Below, piece by piece: positions 5,946 through 59,899 of a DNA stretch of 64,000 nucleotides (its first letter is position 1; each line of letters begins with the position of its first letter). The notes below the pieces were generated by a model that made no database searches, was not told where the DNA came from, and saw only the letters and a program-made list of their open reading frames with translations. Position numbers and translations under genes: made by a program. This DNA is from Mobula hypostoma (Eukaryota), in contig NC_086097.1 in NCBI RefSeq assembly GCF_963921235.1, positions 69,070,001 through 69,134,000 of the forward strand, given 5' to 3'.

Positions 5946-7599
5946 GATGGTTTCATACTTGCTGATGTAGCCAAGAATCTTTTAGAGTGAGGAGTGGGGC
6001 AGAATGAAAGGAGAATATGATTTATGGCCACCTCTATGAACTATCAATTCTCAGAAAACAGGCTGAATATTCGCATTTCCTATTGAGAAATGTCTTGATT
6101 GACAACATTAAAACGCTTTAATCGATTAACTAAGATTGATTACATTCTATCAAAATGCTCCTTGTTATATACTGTAAGAATAAATAATAAATATCGCTAA
6201 GTGTCACAGCAGTTCAGATGGGTGCTTGAGTGTAGACATAGAAATACTGTAGTGGTTTTTGTACGGATGATTCTAATACTATTTTATATCTCTTGGATCA
6301 TATCATTTCACATGCACTATGTTTTATGTTTTATATTAAGAGGTTATATTCAGTCACTAGGCAGACCATGTGGTGTGAAACTGAAAGACTAAACTCATTG
6401 TTGAGCCAGTTCTTAATTTTGAAATCTAATTAACAATTAGTGCCATGGAACTTGCAGCAACTGTTATCTTATTTCCCTTTTTTCTCTTCCCCTGATCCAC
6501 CTGATCCCCATCACCTATCACTTCCCTTCCTATTTCCCTATCGCCGACAGACTCCTCCCAATAATTCCTCCCTAGCACCACTCCCTTTGCCCTCTCCACT
6601 TCCCAGTCTTCATTCCATAAGACCATAACACCATAAGACAAAGGAGCAGAAGTCGGCCGTTCGGCCCATCGAGTCTGCTCCGCCATTTTATGAGCTGATC
6701 CATTCTCCCATTTAGTCCCACTTCCTCGCCTTCTCACCATAACCTTTGATGCCCTGGCTAGTCAGATACCTATCAATCTCTGCCTTAAATACACCCAATG
6801 ACTTGGCCTCCACTGCTGCCCGTGGCAACAAATTCCATAGACTCACCACCCTCTGACTAAAAAAATTTCTTCGCATTTCTGTTCTGAATGGGCGCCCTTC
6901 AATCCTTAAGTCATGCCCTCTCGTACTAGACTCCCCCATCATGGGAAACAACATTGCCACATCCACTCTGTCCATGCCTTTCAACATTTGAAATGTTTCT
7001 CTGAGGTCTCCCCTCATTCTTCTAAACTCCAAGGAATACAGTCCAAGAGCGGACAAACATTTCTCATATGTTAACCCTCTCATTCCTGGAATCATTCTAG
7101 TGAATCTTCTCTGTACCCTCTCCAACGTCAGCACATCCTTTCTTAAATAAGGAGACCAAAACTGCCCACAGTACTCCGAGTGAGGTCTCACCAGCGCCTT
7201 ATAGAGCCTCAACATCACATCCCTGCTCCTATACTCTATTCCTCTAGAAATGAATGCCAACGTTACATTTGCCTTCTTCACTACCTGTCATAAGGAGGTG
7301 GCTGGGAATGGACCCAAGTGCAAGACACAGACACTGAAGTACCAGGGATAGGACTAGGATACAGGGTGAGGGCAAGGACATGGACACGAAAACCAGGAAC
7401 CCGGAACAGGACTGGACAAGAGAGTTAGGAGCCCGGGCTTGGACTCCGAGCCAGAGACTGGACAAGGACCCAGTACCTGGGTCTTGCCTCTGGCTTGGAC
7501 CCCAGAACTAGGCAAGGACAAGGGTTGGCTGGCAGGCAGGATGAGGCTGGAGTCTGAGACTTGAGGTGAGGCTTGGCAGGAGGCAGAAGACCTGAGGCG

Positions 7600-8397
7600 A
7601 GGCTTGGCAGAAAGCTGGAGTCTTCAGGCTTGGGGCTAGGCAGGAGGCTGGAGTCTTCAGGCTTGAGGCTAGGCAGGAGGCTGGAGTCTTCAGGCTTGAG
7701 GCTAGGCAGGAGGCTGGAGTCTTCAGGCTTGAGGCTAGGCAGGAGGCTGGAGTCTTCAGGCTTGAGGCTAGGCAGGAGGCTGGAGTCTTCAGGCTTGAGG
7801 CTAGGCAGGAGGCTGGAGTCTTCAGGCTTGAGGCTAGGCAGGAGGCTGGAGTCTTCAGGCTTGAGGCTAGGCAGGAGGCTGGAGTCTTCAGGCTTGAGGC
7901 TAGGCAGGAGGATGGAGTCTTCAGGCTTGAGGCTAGGCAGGAGGCTGGAGTCTTCAGGCTTGAGGCTAGGCAGGAGGCTGGAGTCTTCAGGCTTGAGGCT
8001 AGGCAGGAGGCTGGAGTCTTCAGGCTTGAGGCTAGGCAGGAGGATGGAGTCTTCAGGCTTGAGGCTAGGCAGGAGGATGGAGTCTTCAGGCTTGAGGCTA
8101 GGCAGGAGGATGGAGTCTTCAGGCTTGAGGCTAGGCAGGAGGATGGAGTCTTCAGGCTTGAGGCTAGGCAGGAGGATGGAGTCTTCAGGCTTGAGGCTAG
8201 GCAGGAGGATGGAGTCTTCAAGCTTGAGGCTAGGCAGGAGGATGGAGTCTTCAGGCTTGAGGCTAGGCAGGAGGCTGGAGTCTTCAGGCTTGAGGCTAGG
8301 CAGGAGGCTGGAGTCTTCAGGCTTGAGGCTTGGCAGGAGGCTGGAGTCTTCAGGCTTGAGGCTTGGCAGGAGGCTGGAGTCTTCAGGCTTAAGGCTA
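7600..8397. repeat. 33-bp minisatellite, about 24 copies
   Basis: Unit GGCTAGGCAGGAGGCTGGAGTCTTCAGGCTTGA, near-perfect copies, no spacers. Confidence 0.97.
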
Positions 8398-8431
8398 GAG
8401 ACACCTCCTGGGCAGGGTGTTGATCACCACC

Positions 8432-8650
8432 CGACAGAGGCAAGGGACAGGAAGGAACAGAACCAACCGCAGGGAACGGCAAGATGGCCTGGCTTCCTCT
8501 ACGGAGGCAAGGGACAGGAAGGGACAGAACCAACCGCACGTAATGGCAAGACAGCCTGGCTTACCTGATGGAGGCAAGGGACAGAACCAACCGCAGGTAA
8601 CGGCAAGACAGCCTGGCTTACCTGGGTGGAGGCAAGGGACAGGAAGGGAG
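8432..8650. repeat. Imperfect ~55-66-bp tandem repeat (3-4 copies) inside the same LTR
   Basis: Recurrent GAGGCAAGGGACAG(GAAGGGACAG)AACCAACCGCA..GGCAAGACAGCCTGGCTTACCT. Confidence 0.8.
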
Positions 8651-14289: not shown

Positions 14290-15040
14290 AATGATCGATT
14301 TGTTACAGCACATAACAGGGCCATTTGGTCTACTGAGTCTACGCTTTCTCCTAGTAATCTGACCATTCTCAATCCTACACTATTTCCACATAATCCTTCA
14401 TTCCCCTCGTGTCTAGCCCACTCCATTTTGAATGTCCAGACACATTCAATTTTGTCCACAAGTTAAAAGCTGAGCCCCCAGTCCTTGAAATAAAGGAAAA
14501 GTTTCCTTTACTGCTATGTCTATGTCATGATCATATATACCACCATCAAATCTCCTCTCACCTTTCCTTGCTCCAAGGGGAACAAAACCAGATTCCCTAG
14601 TCTTGTCCAATGAATGTCTTCAACTGAGAATATTAATTTTTATTTCTCTTTCCAAAGATGCTGCCTGACTTGCTCAGCATTTCTAATATCTGCTATTTTT
14701 TCCATCTTAAGTTCAAACTTGATGTTGAAACCCCTCATTATTGGAACTATTCAAGAATATTCACATCCTTGTAAGCAAGCATTCATACTCTATTTCCCTC
14801 TATTTGCCTTACTAATTCCTCTCTCAAAATGCTCTGTTTATTTTCCAGGATTTGTGCACATATTTATCTGCCTCCTCAAATCCATTCTAACTGTGAAATT
14901 TAATCTTTGCTGCCTTCCCTTATTCTTTTTGTCAAAATGTATCGCTTCACAATTTGGTGCATTAAATTTCATCTGTCACTTATCCATCCATTCAACCAGT
15001 GTACCTGTATCTTCTTACAATCTGCTGCTATCCTCGCTGT
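14290..15040 (-). mobile_element. Old CR1 fragments with a small Penelope-pLTR piece (~14610-14700)
   Basis: Degenerate similarity to the 3' regions of the younger CR1 copies in this window. Confidence 0.45.
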
Positions 15041-23399: not shown

Positions 23400-23640
23400 A
23401 AAAAAGAGATTGCTGGAAATCTGAAATAAAAATAGAAAATGTTGAAGACACTCAGAAGCTCAGGCAGCATCTATGGAGGGAAAGAGTTGATGTTTCAAGT
23501 CAAAGATCTTTCATCAGAACATTTAACCCTTCTAATGAAGGTCTTCAACCTGAAATATTGGCCATTGTTCTCTTTCTACCAGATATGGGGAAAAAAAAGG
23601 CTTGATCTGCTGGGTATTTCCAAAATTTTCTGGTTTTTAT
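23400..23640. mobile_element. Old inverted pair of Penelope pLTR/hammerhead units
   Basis: GTTGATGTTTCAAGTCAAAGATCTTTCATCAGAA, a 10-nt spacer, then TTCTAATGAAGGTCTTCAACCTGAAATATTGG, with both downstream tails present. Confidence 0.6.
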
Positions 23641-24008: not shown

Positions 24009-27000
24009 GCAAAGAGAATAAATGTATAAAAATAAAGCAAAAGATCACCTTGGTTCAAAGCATGTTTCTTTGAAAGAACATCTAGAACTATCAAAACTGC
24101 ATTTATTCATACATAAGCACAAGAAAAAACATTTGATCAAATGCATGCATGAATACAGTGTTATATTAAATAAAAAAGAGTTCTTCCACTTTAATAGGTC
24201 TGCCTTGGAGGATTCTATTAGCCACAGACCACTGACCATCTATCAGTTACAGCAGTTTGCTACAAGATATCGGTGCTTGATCAGTTCATGCCTTGATAAA
24301 TGAACTCCAACAGAAAGTTGGTATTACTTCAACTGACTGATTACCAGCTGTGCCCACTCTCAAAACCCAACTCTAAAATGTCATTCACGTATCTTTGTTA
24401 TAAGTCCATGTTGCAATTGGAATCTGAAATTACTCTGGTGCACATTTAAAAATTGTATCAGTTAATAAATAAATGGCCACACTGTGTTAACTTGGGGACG
24501 GGGGGGCAAAACTGGAACAACTGAAGAGGGAAAAAGTCTGAGGACATTAAAGTGAGCCTGGATGGATTGTTAAAACAAATCAAGTTCGATCAACCCAAAC
24601 AAGATTTTGAAGAAATATAGATAAGAACATTTCCATAGTCATAGCTCAGATTGACTTCTAGAAGCACCCAATGGCACTCCACATAAGAGATTATTAGTTA
24701 AAATTAGCTCTTGGATTAAGATTAAAATTTATTGATCCAGCAAGGTGATAAATTAGGCAACCAAAATCACAAGATAATGTTAATGGGTATTTATTCAAAA
24801 TGATAGAAAATAATTAATGGGAGGCTCACATGGATGCTGGGAACAGAACTGTTATTTATTTATTAATAATGTAGATAATGCAATAGAACAAATGCATCCA
24901 ATTTTATTAATGCCACAAGGATAGATGCCACTTTAAGTACAGTGGACAGAAACATAAGATTACAAAGGGACATTGACAGATTAAACAAGGTGATCAAAAT
25001 GGGTGCAGATGGATTTCAATGGAGATACTGTATGTGTCAGAATAACTGCATGCACTCAACTGGTGCAATGCCTGGAACAAAGAGATATAAAAACTACATT
25101 AAAAAGCTGCAGGAGGTGGAAATATAAACAGAAATGAGTTCTGGAAAAGGGTCTTCAATTGAAACATTAATTCTGTTTCTCTTTCCACAGATGCTACCTG
25201 TATTTTTCAGTATTTTCTGATTTTATTCCAAAGTGATTTATATGCCTGTATATAATGTATACATCACTAAAACATAGTAGTCGGGAACAAACAGAAAAAT
25301 TTGAAAGGGTTAGTGAGATTATTGTCTTTAGAATGTGACTTTCGCTAGAGCTATATGAAGTCATGATTAAACCAGATCTGGAGTATTCCTGTTGGTTCTG
25401 GCCACCAGGTCCATAGACTGCCGATTCACCAGAATGTTTCTGGTGTTCTCAGGACCAAGAAATTAGATGGTAAAAATGAATGAACTGTTTTGTCCTGGAT
25501 GCTCAATGGTTTTTGGAGACACGTTTATCTATGCAAGTGGGAAATATTCCTTCACATTCTTGACTCGTGCCTTTTAAACATGACAGGAACTGTGGGGCAC
25601 AACAAGGCGAGTCAATCAATACAGAAGTTCCAACTTCTGACCTGCTCCATGACCCATGCTACTTAGCTAGTTGATCCAATGATCTGGAATAGGGCAGACA
25701 CTGAAGTGGACCAACCATGTAAATAAAAAGTTTATTCCAACTGAGGATGTTGATAGTGGGGGAATCAATGGTGGTAAATCATTGACTGTGAAAGGCAGAT
25801 AGGGTGAACATTCTCTTGCTGGGGAGATTTATTGCTTGGCTCTTTAGTGGCATAAATATTCTTGCCACTTCTAACTCCATGTCTGATTTGTTGTCAAGGT
25901 TATGCTACATGCAGGCATGTTTGCAGGAATGAATAATGTGCATCATCTATGAATGTCCCGGCCTCAGAACTTGTAATGAAATGAAGGTCATTGATAAAGC
26001 AGCCAGAGATGAGTGGACCTAGGTTACTATGTAGTGATACCCTGGGGTTTCAATTATTTGACTCCAATTTTCCTTAGAACAAGGTATAGTGTTAATCACT
26101 GCAGTGTCTGCCACCCACTAGAGCTTGCATTACCTCTGAGCTTCTAGGATGTTAGAAAGATTCAACTAAGTTTGAAAGATATCCAAATAAGTACATGGAT
26201 AGAAAAAATTTAGAGGGATATGGGCCGAATGCGAAGAAATGGAACTAGTTTGGTTATTATGATTGGCATGGACATAGTGGGTTGAAATACATACCTATTT
26301 CAATGCTGTCTCTGACACCTTGACTCTGGTTGGAAGCAATTGTTATCAACTGCCCAGAGTTTAAGCAGATACCTGTAGCTGAAACAGGACAATTACAGCC
26401 TGGTATCACATTTGATACAAGGTAATCTTCTTCCCACTCCATAACCAAGACTAGCTCAACAACATTAACTAACTCCAGACATGCCCCATTCATCTGTTGC
26501 CAGTACCCACAAACAAGCCTACATATTTGTTCTCGTACACTAAGATTCCATTTCCCATTAAGTAAACTGAAGCTCAAAAATAATCTGCTGGCTGAACGCC
26601 ATTCGCTACACTCTCCAGTGTTTACCATCTCCATTGGCTCCTGGTCAGGGGCTGAGACACTGCCTATGTACTGTATTTTCAAATTCTCCTATGACCTCTT
26701 TCCTTGCATGAGCTGTGTAATTTCCTTCAGATCTACATTTCTTTGAGATTTTTTCACCCCTTCAAATATGGTCTCTTTCTCACCCCAACTTTCAACCTTT
26801 CCTCCAAAGACAGGTAAAACTTAATCTGTGACTGCCTTAAATTCTGGAATTCTCTCAACAATCTCTCTATTCCTCTACCTTTCTCTCCATAGGATAGTTC
26901 CATAGCTCACAAGGCACTCCATAAAGCCCATCTAACAAATTGGTAACACATACAAAATGCAGGAGGAACTCAGCAGGTCAAGAAGCATCAATGGAAATGA

Positions 27001-30639: not shown

Positions 30640-31122
30640 CTGTCTGGGTAGCCTCCAACCTGATGGCATGAATATTGTTTTCTTGAATTTCCAGTAATGC
30701 CCTCCCATTCCCCATTCCCCATTCCCCATTCCCTATTGCCTCTCTCACCTTATCTCCTTACAGCCTGTTGCCTCTCTCTAGTGCTCCCCCCCCCACTTTC
30801 TTTCTTCCATGGCCTTCTGTCCTCTCTTATCAGATTCCCTCTTCTACAGCCCTGTATCTCTTTCACCAATCAACTTCCCAGCTTGTTACTTAACCCCTCC
30901 CCTCCCAGTTTCACCTATCACCTTGTTTTTCTTCCCCCCCCCTCCCCCCACCCCCCAACATTCTAACTGATGCCTCATCTTTTCTCTCCAGTCCTGATGA
31001 AGGGCCTTGGCCCGGAACGTCGACTGTACTCTTTTCCATAGAGGCTGCCTGGTCTGCTTGAGTTCCTCCAGCATTTTGTGTGTTGCTTAGATTTCCAGCA
31101 TCTACAGATGTTCTCTTGTTTG
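30640..31122 (+). mobile_element. Penelope-like element 3' end: EN C-terminus plus pLTR with hammerhead
   Basis: LGSLQPDGMNI (PLE GIY-YIG C-terminal motif), pyrimidine tract, then CAGTC CTGATGA AGGGCCTTGGCCC GGAAC GTC GACTG (30989-31026; GAAA core mutated to GGAA). Confidence 0.8.
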
Positions 31123-35174: not shown

Positions 35175-35350
35175 AGGAAGAGGCGCAGTCGACGTTTCAG
35201 GCCGAGACCCTTCGTCAGGACTGACGAAGGGTCTCGGCCTGAAACGTCGACTGCGCCTCTTCCTATAGATGCTGCCTGGCCTGCTGCGTTCACCAGCAAC
35301 TTTGATGTATGTTGCTTGAATTTCCAGCATCTGCAGAATTCCTGTTGTTT
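35175..35350. mobile_element. Young Penelope-derived insertion with an inverted 5' segment
   Basis: 44-bp perfect inverted repeat 35175-35218/35221-35264, then the pLTR tail; AGGAAGAG duplicated at 35175-35182 and 35351-35358; interrupts CR1 RT. Confidence 0.9.
35186..35223 (-). ncRNA. Minimal type I hammerhead ribozyme, core intact
   Basis: Minus strand CAGTC-CTGACGA-AGG(GTCTCGG)CCT-GAAAC-GTC^GACTG: stem I CAGTC/GACTG, CUGANGA and GAAA core, palindromic ACGU in place of stem III, GUC cleavage triplet. Confidence 0.8.
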
Positions 35351-38300
35351 AGGAAGAGTCAGCATGGCTTTTTGCGAGGCAAGTCATGTCTTACTAGCTT
35401 GATTGAGTTTTTTGACAAGGTGACGAGAGTGATTGATGAAGATAGAGCTGTGGATGTTGTCTATATGGATTTTAATAAGGCATTTGACAAGGTTCTTCAT
35501 GGGAGCTTCATCCAGAATGTTAAGATGCATGGGATCCATGGTGAATTGGCTGTTTGGATTCAGAATTGTCTTGCCCATGGAGACAGAGGGTAGTGTCAAA
35601 CGGACATACTCTAGCTGGAAGTCTGTGATTAATAAAGTGCCACAGGGACTTGTACTGGAGCCTCTGTTGTTTGTAATATAAATGACCTGGATGAAAATGT
35701 AAATGGTGGGGTAGTAAGTTTGCAGATGGTACAAAAATTGATGGTGTTGTGGATAGCATAGATGACTGGCAAAGAATGCAATGGGGTATACAGTAGATCA
35801 GTTGCAGATATTGTATGAGCAGAGGAAAGGCAGATGGAGTTTAACCTGGCTAGATGCGAAGAATTGCACCTTGGTAGGTCAAATGCAAAGAGACAATACA
35901 CTGATAACAGCAAGACCCTTAACAGTGTTAATGATCAGCAGGGATCTTGGGGTCCAAATTAATAGCTCCCTTAAAGTGGCTACACAGCTTGATTGGACAG
36001 TTAAGAAGACTTATGGCATGCTTGCCTTTATTAAGTCAAGGCATTGAGTTCAAAAGTCGGGAAGTTATGTTGCCGCTTTATAAAACTCTAGTTGGGCTGC
36101 ATCTGGATTACTGCATACAGTTCTGGTGGCCCCATTATAGGAACAATGTCGAGGCTTTGGAGAGGGTGCAGAAGAGGTTAACCAGGATGTTGCCAGGAGT
36201 AGAGGGCATATGCAAAAACAAGAGGTTGGACAAACATGTGTTGTTTCCTTTGGAATGGTGAATGCTGATGGGAGATCTGGTAGAGGTTTAAAGATTATGA
36301 GAGGCATAGATAGAGAAGGCAGTGTCTTTTCCCTAGGGCTGAAATGTCCAATACCAGCAGAGATGCACTTAAGGTGAGAGAGGGTAATTTCAGGCTTTTT
36401 ACACAGAGTGTGGTGGCTGCCTGGAATGCACTGCCTGAGGTAGTGGTAGAGGCAGATATATTAGTGACTTTTAAGAGACGTTATATAGGCATATGAATGT
36501 GAAGAAAATGGAAGGATATGAACATTGTGTAGGCAGAAGAGACTAATTTATAGTTGGCCATTTGATTACTGTCTTAATTAGTTTGGCAGAACATTGTGGG
36601 CCAGAAGGCTTGTTCCTAAGCAGTACTGTTCTTTTCTGTGTTCTGTGCCTTTTCTGTCATTGCCTTTCCAAATGCTGGTAGGTCCTGACACTCAGAATCC
36701 CCTGCAGAAACTTTCCCACCTCTGATATTAGGCTCACTAATCTGTAGTTCACGGGCTTGTCCTTGTCGCACTTTTAGAAAATAAGCACGACGACAGTCAT
36801 GTTTCAGTGTTCTGATATCTTAGCCACGGCTAAAGGTATCACTGCCAAGGCCTTGCTTCACACAAAATCCTAGAATACACTCGGCCAGCAGATTTGTCAA
36901 CCTCAATTTGTGATAAGACCACCAGCACCTCCTCTTTTTTTCATGTGGATCAAACTATATCCCCACAGTTACTCTATCAGACACAATTCTTCACATTGCA
37001 TTGTGGAAGCATCCTGTTTATAGTGGTCAGACATTTGCCCTGAAAATCGTGAGTTACAGAAAGGAGCTATCCTCACTACAACACTTGGCCCTGAGATCCA
37101 ATGGCCCTACCTTCAACTGTCCTGCAAAAGGCGGTCAGCCTTACTGCTAATTGCTTAGCCTGAAGCCCTGTATCACTGTTCATTGAACATTTTACCTCCT
37201 TTCACCCTCATACGCCTATAAAATCCCTTGTTATTTTGCTATTCTTAGTTCCTGCGCCTATTCTTCCTAATTGCTCATTTTGGTTTCTGCTGATCTAATT
37301 ACAAGCCTTTTTTTAAAAAAAAATACTTAGGTCTCAATCTTTGTTCTAAGCATTTAATATTGTCATGGAACCCTTGCCCTTTTTCATAATCAATTTAACA
37401 TGGAGCTGATTTTGTAATTTCTTGTTAAATCTACTCCATTATTAGAATGCTATTTGGCCTGACATTTTTCAAAATAATTAATCTGGGTTGATCCCAATTC
37501 ATATGACAGAAATAATTTAAATTCCACTCTATAATATTTGATTCAATGCCTTCTTTATTTTAAATGTAAACTTCAATGGATTATACCTGAATATTCTCGA
37601 TGTTAAACTATTTATTACTGTAGAATATTCAGCCCAGTGCATGTTCAGCATGCTGATAAGAAAGTGACCGTCCCTATGTTGAATGGAACTGGGAGTTATC
37701 TTTTGCACATGTGATCCGCAATCCCAAACAATCCACTGGCTGGTGGCAGGATTATCACATGTAGAAGATGGCACATTTAAATTCCCCTGCTACCATACAG
37801 GAAACAGTACCCTAGCATAAAAGCTAGGACCAACAGGCTCTGGGACAGCTTCTTCCACCAAGCCATCAGACTGATTAACTCATGCTGATACAATTGTATT
37901 TCTATATTGTAATGTAAAGACTTTTACTCCTCATGTATATGAAGGATGTAAGTAATAAAGTCAATTGAATTCAAGATGTTACCATTACAATAATACTCAC
38001 TCCAATGTTTGCCTAACAAGAGTCAAAACAAGCCAGCTGGACTAGGGGAGAAGGCCGGGAACTGGGGTTGAGGAGGAGATAGAAGAAAGGATCAGCCATG
38101 ATTGAATGGCAGAGCAGATTCAAAGGGCTGGATGGCCTAATTCTGCTCCTGTGTTTTATGGTCTTATGGACTAGCACTTGATTATACATCCAAGTCAGAA
38201 ATGGAACTGTGCATACGTGGGAGCCCTTAATGCAACTTTAACTCTTACACCAGTCCAGATGTAGCACCTGCATGGTAGGGGTTACCAAAAGCATTTCAAA

Positions 38301-43809: not shown

Positions 43810-43943
43810 AGTGATGAAAGGTCTCAGTCCAAAGGGTCAAATGTTTATTCCTCTCCATTGATGCCGCCTGACCTGCTGAGTTCCTCCAGCATTTTGTGTG
43901 TGTTCTTCTGGTCTCCAGCGTCTGCAGAATCTCTTGTGTTTAT
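43810..43943 (+). mobile_element. Penelope pLTR copy, decayed hammerhead
   Basis: GTGATGAAAGGTCTCAGTCC..GATGCCGCCTGACCTGCTGAGTTCCTCCAGCATTTTGTGTG..GCGTCTGCAGAATCTCTTGTGTTT. Confidence 0.75.
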
Positions 43944-57468: not shown

Positions 57469-58516
57469 CCACACATTGTGGGGTGCATCAAATTCCAATC
57501 CATGTGTAGTCTTAAGTTAACTTTGTGGGTAATTAAAGATGGTATGCCCTGGTGCCTCATAAAGTGGGGCTCTTTGCATGCGCTATCTCCTCCAACAGAG
57601 TCAAATGAAAGCGAATTAAGGAAGGCACTGGATGATGCTATGGCTGTGTTCAAGGATGGACTGGAAAAACTCAAAGATATCAAGAGTAAAATCATTTTAA
57701 ATGAAAATGAAAGAGTGATAGGGGCTGCCAGGAATTTACACCAGAAGAATAAGTATGCAGCTATTATTGTGTTTTCTAGTCAATATCTTTTTGTAAATAT
57801 TGGCAGTTTTTCTTTCACTATTTTCGATAATTTTCTTCAGTTTAATTTTTGAAGCATCCAATAAACACCCTTGCACTAAAGTACTGAGCAACTACAGCCA
57901 TTTTTTTTTCCTTTGGTCTATATCTGCATATCTAACACAGGTCATTGTTTCTTGGCTACTGGGACCAATAGCATTGCCCATGGGCTCCACCCAAACCCAG
58001 AAAGAATTCCTTCAGCCCCCATGCAAACTTGCTCACAGGCTACTTTATCACAGATAGCATAAAAACCAGAAAGGTGTTGCAAAACTCAAATGTGGCAGTT
58101 TCATTGAAAACGATTTTACTCTTGATATATTTGAGTATTCCAATTCACCCTTGAACACAGCTGTAGCATCATCCAGTGCCTTCCTTAATTCACTTTCAGC
58201 TGGCTCTGTTGGAGGGGATGTGGCATGCAAATGGTGGATGCATCTCCAAACACATTATAGTTGTCTCAGACACTCACGAGTTCACAATTCTGACCCTCCT
58301 GCTTTTACCACTTACAAGCCTAATGTTTCACTGTTACGAATGTCATTCCCATAGGAGTTACTTTTTTGAAGCATAGGTTCTTAGTTGGATATTTGCAGGC
58401 TTCAGTTCAGTGTTCTTGAAGTGCCATTCAAACTCACTTTGTGGAATGACTGAAAAAGCCTAGCCAGTGTCCAAATACATTTTAATTAATTTGCCGTTCA
58501 CCTCGGCTTGTCTCTT

Positions 58517-58695
58517 TAAAAATGCACACACAAGGAAATCTGCAGATGCTGGAAATTCAAGCAACGCACACAAAATGCTGGTGGAATGCAGCAGGCCAGG
58601 CAGCATCTCTAGGAAGCAGTACAGTCGACTGTACTTCTTCTTACAGATGCTACCTGGCCTGCTGCATTCCACCAGAATTTTGTGTGTGTGGCTTG
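58517..58695. mobile_element. Penelope-derived palindromic insertion centred on GTCGAC
   Basis: Arms ~58558-58626 and 58627-58695; GGCTTGTCTCTT duplicated at 58505-58516 and 58690-58701. Confidence 0.85.
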
Positions 58696-59899
58696 TCTCT
58701 TGTTAGTTTTCATATTTTAAGTCTCAAGGCTACTTAGTCCTGAGTAACTCTCATCGTTATCAGAGTTTTCATCAACAACAAGCAGATCAGTGCTCTTTTT
58801 GAAACTACAACTTGACTTTTTATGTTTTTCTCTTTCCTGTGCAGTCCATTTATTTTTGTCTGCCTGGCATACTCTTTGTATGTGTCCTACTTTGTTGCAT
58901 TTTCTGCAAGTTTCGCCTTCAAACCTCCATTGGTCTGGTGTATGTGAGCCCCTGCCACAATGGTAACACCATTTGTTCAGCCAGGCTGGTTTCTGTTTTG
59001 ACATTACAAGTTTGTTCATGCTCACTTTCATTTGCAATTGTGTCTCTGACTGCTGTTTCCATTGATATAGCAATTTCAACTGCTCTTTTAACTGAGAGTT
59101 GTATTTCAGTTAGGAGCTATTTTTGAATGCTTTCCTGTAAGATTCCACAAACTGAACGATCTCTCAGTACATCATTAGGCTCTTCACTGAACTGACAATG
59201 CTCAGACAATCTCTTTAATTCGGCGCATACACTGAAATGAACTCTTTCCTTTTGTTTCCACTTATGAAACCTGAAGTATTCTGCAATCAACAATGATTTT
59301 TCTTCTAAATGTTCCTGCATTACATTCATGATATCAGCAAAACTCATTTTGTCTGGTTTGGTTGGAGCAGTCAAATCTGTATGCTTTTCCACCCAATGCA
59401 CTCATCAAAACTGGCACTCGCTTTTCATTGTCTACTTCATTCGCTTTAAAATACTGCTCAATTTGCTCAGTGTATATCAGTCAGATATCTTTTGTGCAAA
59501 CAAATTAATTTACCTTTCTGATGCAGCCAGCCATTTTTACTTGCTTTTTAAAAAATTTATTATCATTATCACCCGGTACTCACTGTTAATAAACCCGTGA
59601 AATTCATCCGTTTTCTACCTTTTTTTAACTTGCATCTATGTCCCTTCCTAAAAAAGCACGTGATATGATTTTTTAAAAAATTCAGACATCTCACCGCTGC
59701 TTTTTAAACTCAAACATCTTGCTGCACTTCAACGGGTAGGTAGTCATCTTGGGTTCATTATAGGACTCAATCACCACCACTGTTATGTTTTGTAAATCAA
59801 AAACAAAAATCATCTACACAAAGGACTGGGTAACCTCCTCCTGTCTGTAAATTTCCATGATTTTATGAATATGCCACAGAGCATCTGCAGAGGGTGAAT

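What the first reader, a model, noticed from the sequence alone, without database searches (positions are those of the whole stretch)
58505..58701. Palindromic insertion folded exactly at the predicted ribozyme cleavage site
Seen: an inverted repeat with ~69-bp arms and no spacer, with its axis at GTC|GAC (58626/58627). That is the GUC^GACUG cleavage position of the hammerhead in the sister copies. Read outward from the axis, each arm holds only sequence 3' of the cut, and the catalytic core is absent. A 12-bp target duplication (GGCTTGTCTCTT) overlaps the inverted arm end. Inference: a fossil of reverse transcription of a self-cleaved RNA followed by fold-back or second-template copying, which would be genomic evidence of ribozyme processing in vivo. 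Alternative: later deletion between the two CAGTCGACTG palindromes of a 35175-type hairpin.
Basis: partly seen in the sequence, partly recalled or inferred. Interest (0 to 1): 0.75.

Follow-up and report, generated by a model that had tools for sequence, protein, structure and literature searches.

The report
Head-to-head Penelope insertion, microhomology join
This 185-base palindrome is one of at least a hundred similar insertions of a very abundant Penelope-type jumping gene, likely made when two DNA copies were joined at a short self-matching word that happens to straddle the predicted ribozyme cut, so it is weak evidence that the ribozyme cuts in living cells, although copy ends across the genome do fall at that base about two to three times more often than at most neighbouring bases.

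Summary
In detail: a spacer-less inverted repeat with axis GTC|GAC, no catalytic core, and a 12-bp target duplication. It is a 5'-truncated, head-to-head insertion of a Neptune-type Penelope-like element (PLE): a 110-nt arm with the PLE tail plus a 63-nt arm. The same fold occurs at 101 places in this genome, against 78,615 arms that read through the predicted cut. The axis cannot locate the join, because the cut is the centre of GTCGAC, the strongest inverted microhomology in the region. Joins at words unrelated to the cut are as common or commoner: 178, 122, about 100, about 315 and 57 places; 20 of 20 sampled were head-to-head. Microhomology joining of two cDNAs therefore suffices. A residue remains: arm starts at the cut base are 1.4 to 3.5 times those at five control positions, under 1% of arms. 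The architecture is published; the scan met this motif on other genomes, with split verdicts.

The parts
58505..58516 (+). left copy of 12-bp target-site duplication GGCTTGTCTCTT
58517..58626 (-). long arm, 110 nt: element positions +1 to +110 from the predicted cut; its outer ~40 nt (about 58517-58557) is the one-sided PLE tail
   Evidence: long arms end at +95 to +116 in 43 of 43 fold loci; tail label from PMC8557442 and PMC11167929
58624..58629 (.). GTCGAC, self-complementary word native to the element; the predicted hammerhead cut lies at its centre; the join may lie anywhere within it
58627..58689 (+). short arm, 63 nt: element positions +1 to +63, no tail; its outer end matches the target (5 of 6 nt)
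   Evidence: short arms end at +55 to +79 in 38 of 43 fold loci
58690..58701 (+). right copy of the target-site duplication
35175..35358 (.). sister head-to-head insertion with two cores, joined upstream of the core; 8-bp duplication AGGAAGAG at 35175 and 35351; used as reference for the hammerhead and cut position

Best explanation
The palindrome is a truncated head-to-head insertion of a Neptune-type Penelope-like retrotransposon, likely made when both nicked strands of the target primed reverse transcription and the two cDNAs were likely joined by annealing at the self-complementary word GTCGAC, whose centre coincides with the predicted hammerhead cut. Shown: arms, tail on one arm only, target duplication, the family's GIY-YIG ORF about 300 nt upstream of the core, and the junction counts. 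Inferred from in vitro work on the anole PLE (PMC11167929): staggered nicks on both strands, one cDNA started at the outer site (tail included) and one at the inner site. Inferred: both cDNAs ran at least three bases past the cut on uncut or re-ligated RNA, paired through GTCGAC, and were trimmed and filled in.
For: GTCGAC is the most stable inverted microhomology of 5 nt or more between -90 and +72 in 3 of 3 copies examined. The fold there has 101 places. Joins at words away from the cut: TGCTG 178; AGCAAC 122; GAAGG 49 of the first 100 rows of 207; the imperfect GAGAC/GAAAC join 31 of the first 100 rows of 1,018; GGCC fold 57; ACGT fold 21 of the first 50 of 72 places. 20 of 20 fetched control loci are head-to-head insertions of the same build (18 joined away from the cut, 2 at a GAC word that starts at +1). 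78,615 arms read through the cut. 43 of 43 fold loci have a long tail-bearing arm and 36 of 43 a direct repeat of 9 bp or more. The fold occurs in several subfamilies with matching arms, so it arose repeatedly. PMC11167929: the protein nicks and extends both strands, starts at two sites bounding the tail, ribozyme mutants insert normally, and no RNA reads end at the cut. PMC3846280 already notes palindromes at head-to-head PLE junctions.
Against: Arm starts at +1 exceed controls: 118 against 72 (-9) and 37 (-8), and 88 against 36 (+4) and 79 (+8); after correction 1.9-3.5 times, and 1.4 times -3. The 6-bp AT-rich palindrome CTATAG folds at only 3 places against 29 arms at 24 places for the cut-site pattern in the same subfamilies (not all checked to be folds). 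The 5-bp word CTGAA gives only 9 of 100 rows. A 3-bp GAC join that starts at +1 reaches 8 of 100 rows. Three loci have both arms ending exactly at +1 with filler between (L195, L234, L235). Control patterns differ in length and subfamily reach, and the TGCTG and AGCAAC joins need shorter cDNAs.
Confidence: 0.68

Rival explanations
1. At least one arm was copied from ribozyme-cut RNA. The cDNA ran off the 5' end at GACUG; its terminal GTC then paired with GAC in a partner cDNA, or two cut-end cDNAs were joined blunt. Both routes give this exact sequence.
For: +1 is the highest of six positions counted (corrections; binomial p 1e-7 to 8e-4 against -9, -8, +4, +8 under a simple base-composition model). 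Both arms end at +1 with filler in L195, L234, L235. GAC and GACT joins starting at +1 give 8 and 6 of 100 rows. Two earlier scan notes report stronger peaks in other genomes (unchecked).
Against: The excess is about 300 arms beside 78,615 read-through arms. -3, which keeps three bases upstream of the cut, is also raised, and a join starting at -5 is about three times commoner than the fold. GAC and GACT recur in the partner arm, which favours +1 by microhomology alone. Filler at the axis can arise later by repair at a hairpin tip. Metazoan minimal hammerheads cleave poorly in vitro (PMC4209133) and cleavage was dispensable for the anole element (PMC11167929).
Confidence: 0.15
2. The insertion was first a longer two-core hairpin, like the 35175 copy, and later lost its centre by slippage or repair between the two GTCGAC words, which are direct repeats.
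For: Two-core hairpins are common: 9 close head-to-head pairs among the first 100 rows. Any microhomology join can in principle be made after insertion as well.
Against: Folds with no arm difference over 45 nt exist (8 of 43), so the fold forms at or soon after insertion. 8 of those 9 short two-core pairs belong to the CGC subfamily, but only 9 of the first 50 folds do; subfamily age could also explain this.
Confidence: 0.12
3. One cDNA, or an antisense template, primed on itself at the palindrome and was copied back, as proposed for rotifer Penelope elements.
For: Arms nearly always share a subfamily and sometimes private variants (L008, L025). Short fold-back pieces occur at other junctions (L202, L206, L216). 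PMC3846280 proposes self-priming.
Against: A 6-nt palindrome leaves no room for a loop. The two outer ends stop at two different, recurring positions that match the two priming sites. Asymmetric joins are as common as symmetric ones. 4 of the first 50 folds pair a TAC arm with a CAC arm, which hints at two templates.
Confidence: 0.05

Closest known systems
Endonuclease-bearing Penelope-like elements, Neptune/Nematis type, with an inverted 5'-truncated copy and a one-sided 30-40 bp tail (PMC8557442, passages; PMC3846280, passages)
   Same: Head-to-head arms, tail on one arm, short target duplication, palindrome at the inverted junction, RT plus C-terminal GIY-YIG ORF with a CX4CxxC linker, hammerhead in the terminal repeat.
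   Different: Here both arms are so short that the core is lost, and the family is large enough to count junction types; the passages read give no such count.
PAc, Poseidon element of the green anole (PMC11167929, parts 1-2 of 4 read)
   Same: Cleaves and extends both strands, two start sites bounding the tail, minimal hammerhead upstream of them.
   Different: Poseidon clade, with the hammerhead overlapping the ORF start; joining of two cDNAs was not reconstituted. The window's family was not assayed.
Minimal type I hammerheads of metazoan PLEs (PMC4209133, part 1 of 4 and passages)
   Same: CUGANGA and GAAA core, 5-bp stem I, extra base before stem II, palindromic ACGU in place of helix III; opposite-strand pairs were noted there too.
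   Different: The finding's own copy has no core. The palindrome needed for dimer cleavage (ACGU) is centred 3 nt upstream of the cut; GTCGAC is a second, overlapping one.
L1 twin priming (recalled; PMC2837659 seen as search listing only)
   Same: Both target strands prime, and the cDNAs are joined at microhomology inside a target duplication.
   Different: In L1 the second primer copies an upstream part of the RNA; here both arms copy the same 3' stretch, giving a palindrome.

Membership tests
EN+ Penelope-like element, Neptune/Nematis type | RT followed by C-terminal GIY-YIG endonuclease in one ORF | tested here: met
   380-aa open frame in L055 has YIDD and a GIY-YIG match (PF01541, E 0.0024, 18.6 bits, below the 22.6 cut-off) and ends about 300 nt upstream of the core. 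It lies in sister copies, not in the window's copy; no full-length ORF was recovered.
EN+ Penelope-like element, Neptune/Nematis type | CX2-5CxxC linker before the endonuclease | tested here: met
   CKRNKCYTC in L055; motif definition from PMC8557442
EN+ Penelope-like element, Neptune/Nematis type | inverted 5'-truncated copy, one-sided tail, target duplication | tested here: met
EN+ Penelope-like element, Neptune/Nematis type | RT phylogeny places it in Neptune rather than Nematis | not tested
   no tree built
Minimal type I hammerhead (sister copies) | core CUGANGA/GAAA, stem I, stem II, cut after UC | tested here: met
   read from sequence in L048-L075: TAGTC CTGACGA ... GAAACGTC GACTG. Rfam gave no hammerhead hit in the window; folding the 35216-35256 plus strand, which lacks the 5' stem I strand, gave no hammerhead fold.
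Minimal type I hammerhead (sister copies) | self-cleavage at GUC^GACUG | not testable with these tools
   needs an assay; the position is predicted from the consensus
Insertion with ribozyme-defined ends | sharp pile-up of 5' ends at the cut | tested here: not met
   under 1% of arms; 1.4-3.5 times controls
Insertion with ribozyme-defined ends | some excess of ends at the cut that microhomology cannot explain | tested here: inconclusive
   excess seen with two filters; no full microhomology null could be built

The most novel reading that the evidence does not exclude
The two- to three-fold excess of arm starts at the exact cut base, and the loci with both arms ending there around filler bases, are a germ-line record that the minimal Penelope hammerhead cuts a small share of templates in vivo. 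A cut cDNA ends in GTC and can pair with GAC in its partner, so some of the 101 folds, perhaps this one, would be products of cut RNA. Junction censuses in PLE-rich genomes would then measure ribozyme activity.
Probability: 0.3. Interest if true: 0.6.

Novelty: new member of a known kind. Interest (0 to 1): 0.3.

Why it matters
Whether PLE hammerheads cut in vivo, and how PLE insertions are finished, are open questions (PMC4209133, PMC11167929). This locus does not answer the first, because the cut is hidden inside a palindrome that attracts joins anyway. The family does bear on the second: thousands of young head-to-head copies have one tail-bearing and one tail-less arm and join at predictable microhomologies, as expected if both target strands prime. 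The small +1 excess is a defined, testable lead.

Tried and rejected
Ortholog test: contigs of 4 runs laid on window 58100-59100. The flanks are themselves a repeat and no piece spans the insertion, so neither an empty nor a longer allele could be told. RNA: no RNA holder listed; only contigs were offered, which cannot show RNA ends. Rfam: only mir-3926, below its gathering score, on the 35175 hairpin; rejected as a generic hairpin match. One search was meant to count +2 starts but the pattern was one place short; its total (1,041) is not used. The +8 control pools +6 to +8 starts of the CGC subfamily (36 of 79 rows by eye), so ratios were redone on TAGAG rows only. A by-eye class of 'simple truncations' was dropped: of 10 such +1 loci one proved a long inverted arm, one a forward join from the ORF, and at most one had an adjacent duplication (7 bp). 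T/C discordance at -9 between arms was rejected as evidence for two templates because it is a CpG site. A single amplified master palindrome was rejected: several subfamilies, varied outer ends, own duplications. A DNA-transposon MITE was rejected: unequal arms and variable 9-18 bp duplications. No full-length autonomous copy was found in 4 regions fetched. A sequence look-up among earlier findings returned nothing.

Full report
Observation. The inverted repeat is present as described: arms 58558-58626 and 58627-58695, 90% complementary, no spacer, with GGCTTGTCTCTT at 58505 and 58690 and nowhere else in the window. Between the two target copies lie 173 bases: a 110-nt arm on the minus strand and a 63-nt arm on the plus strand, both starting at GACTG, with 6 mismatches over 63. 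Positions below are counted from the predicted cut, +1 being the G of GACTG.

What the family is. Sister copies extend upstream through TAGTC CTGACGA ... GAAACGTC, a pyrimidine-rich stretch of about 300 nt, and the end of an ORF. In L055 that frame is open for 380 aa, with YIDD, a CX4CxxC linker and a weak GIY-YIG match. That fits a Neptune or Nematis type Penelope-like element as defined in PMC8557442 (passages); no tree was built. The core matches the minimal type I hammerhead of PMC4209133 (part 1 of 4 and passages), and the cut after GUC follows from the consensus; it was not assayed. The family is very large: 23,740 exact copies of one 43-mer and 78,615 arms that run intact through the cut, in a 3.48-Gb genome. 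That the host is a cartilaginous fish is my recall, not a result.

The fold is recurrent. A DNA search scored 40 of 2,719 candidates; 26 of the 28 other loci fetched have the same axis. Patterns give 43 exact places and 101 with tolerance for subfamily and CpG change. In 43 distinct fold loci the long arm ends at +95 to +116, the short arm at +55 to +79 in 38, and 36 have a direct repeat of 9 bp or more, 29 of them 11-15 bp. One arm with the tail and one without matches the two start sites and the two-strand nicking and extension reported for the anole element in PMC11167929 (parts 1-2 of 4). That paper also found ribozyme mutants inserting normally and no RNA reads ending at the cut.

Why the axis is not evidence by itself. 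The cut lies at the centre of GTCGAC, so blunt joining of two cut ends, pairing of one cut end with an uncut partner, annealing of two uncut cDNAs, and later deletion all give the same letters. GTCGAC is also the most stable word of 5 nt or more shared by the element and its reverse complement between -90 and +72 (3 of 3 copies). I therefore counted joins at other words. TGCTG: 178 places. AGCAAC: 122. GAAGG: 49 of the first 100 rows of 207, about 100; CTGAA: 9 of 100. The imperfect GAGAC/GAAAC join: 31 of the first 100 rows of 1,018, about 315; CGTC 13, GAC 8, GACT 6. Symmetric folds: GGCC 57 (pattern open to older subfamilies), ACGT 21 of the first 50 of 72 places, CTATAG 3 (against 29 arms at 24 places). 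Row splits are by eye. Twenty control loci fetched, 18 joined away from the cut and 2 at the GAC word, were all head-to-head insertions of the same build. An asymmetric join can form two ways, so halved counts (89, 50, 158) are the fair match to 101; AGCAAC was counted in one form only. The fold at the cut sits inside this range.

I counted arms whose three upstream bases all depart from the consensus, with further filters to exclude intact copies. Far filter: +1 118, -9 72, -8 37. Near filter: +1 88, +4 36, +8 79, -3 136 of which about a third are fold arms. Corrected for filter passage, chance extension and divergence, +1 is 2.2 times -9 and 1.9 times -8; on TAGAG rows only, which removes a subfamily artefact at +8, it is 3.5 times +4, 2.1 times +8 and 1.4 times -3. 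Unfiltered row lists between -13 and +10 show ends at nearly every position. The estimate is 540-570 starts at +1, under 1% of read-through arms, with an excess of about 300. The filters drop some of each position's favourite joins and the correction assumes random flanks, so the ratios are rough. The result is a real but modest local peak, not ribozyme-defined ends. Three loci with both arms ending at +1 around filler (L195, L234, L235) favour cut ends, but repair at a hairpin tip would give the same. Near-miss variants of the fold (24 places) are about as frequent, relative to the fold, as near-misses around the GAAGG join (about 10 per 49, by eye).

Mechanism. Most likely the element's enzyme nicked both strands 12 bp apart, each 3' end primed on the element RNA, one at the tail end and one at the tail start helped by the GGCTTG/TGCTTG match, and the two cDNAs paired through GTCGAC and were trimmed and filled. 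The anatomy and counts are shown; priming and joining are inferred. I give this 0.68, at least one cut template 0.15, later deletion from a two-core hairpin 0.12, self-priming 0.05. The ortholog and RNA tests gave nothing usable.

What is known. PMC3846280 (passages) describes head-to-head Penelope copies with palindromes at the junction, a one-sided tail and 8-10 bp duplications, and proposes self-priming. PMC8557442 describes the inverted truncated copy as typical. The 2026 bioRxiv paper on animal retrozymes (10.64898/2026.07.22.740005; part 1 of 5 and passages) does not treat inverted junctions in what I read. Five searches listed no census of PLE junctions against the hammerhead site; the library lacks most subscription papers. 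Earlier scan notes on other genomes split: two claim strong peaks at the cut, three call the support weak; I could not check their data.

Verdict. An ordinary product of a known element class, with a confounded axis: new member of a known kind, interest 0.3. The residual excess at +1 keeps a 0.3 chance that the family carries a faint in vivo record of cleavage.

Noticed in passing
window 35175-35358: Young two-core head-to-head copy; the short arm is only about 16 nt past the cut and its outer 8 nt are the target duplication AGGAAGAG, so it was likely primed by homology with the target. Only the minus strand keeps the 5' strand of stem I.
   Followed up: partly
window 30994-31121, 43857-43942, 23450-23517, 14646-14674, 26966-26996: Five more copies or fragments of the same family, older and more diverged; 30994 keeps a forward core with GGAA for GAAA.
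   Followed up: no
L202, L206, L211, L213, L216 (junctions near locus position 1510): Junctions in which the inverted arm is followed by a short forward copy of its own end and then jumps to GTCGACTG, skipping the core: templated fold-back filler.
   Followed up: partly
L195, L234, L235, L236: CGC-subfamily loci with one or both arms ending exactly at +1 and 1-8 filler bases at the axis.
   Followed up: partly
L231 1387-3417 and L232 931-3489: Kilobase-scale head-to-head insertions reaching into the ORF (arms 787 bp at 93% and 1,041 bp at 98%): the same build at larger size.
   Followed up: partly
L033, L174/L175: Short tandem stutters of 26-31 nt inside an arm, restarting at -9 or at +1.
   Followed up: no
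G000, rows: Five perfect folds AAGAGG|CCTCTT with only a 2-bp native homology, all in TATAG copies; more than a 2-bp word would suggest.
   Followed up: no
L046 and L063: Two copies truncated at the same base with the same upstream flank, so a truncated copy was re-amplified within another repeat or duplication.
   Followed up: no
window 7467-8525: Tandem array of a 33-bp unit, 96-98% alike in its core, followed by 57-67 bp repeats at 8434-8624.
   Followed up: no
window 57573-57709 and 58096-58231: Inverted repeat pair about 400-470 bp apart (84-86%) just left of the finding; the flanks of the insertion are a high-copy repeat.
   Followed up: no
window 35182-35257: Rfam mir-3926 match (51.8 bits, gathering score 82) falls on the PLE hairpin; likely a generic hairpin match.
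   Followed up: partly
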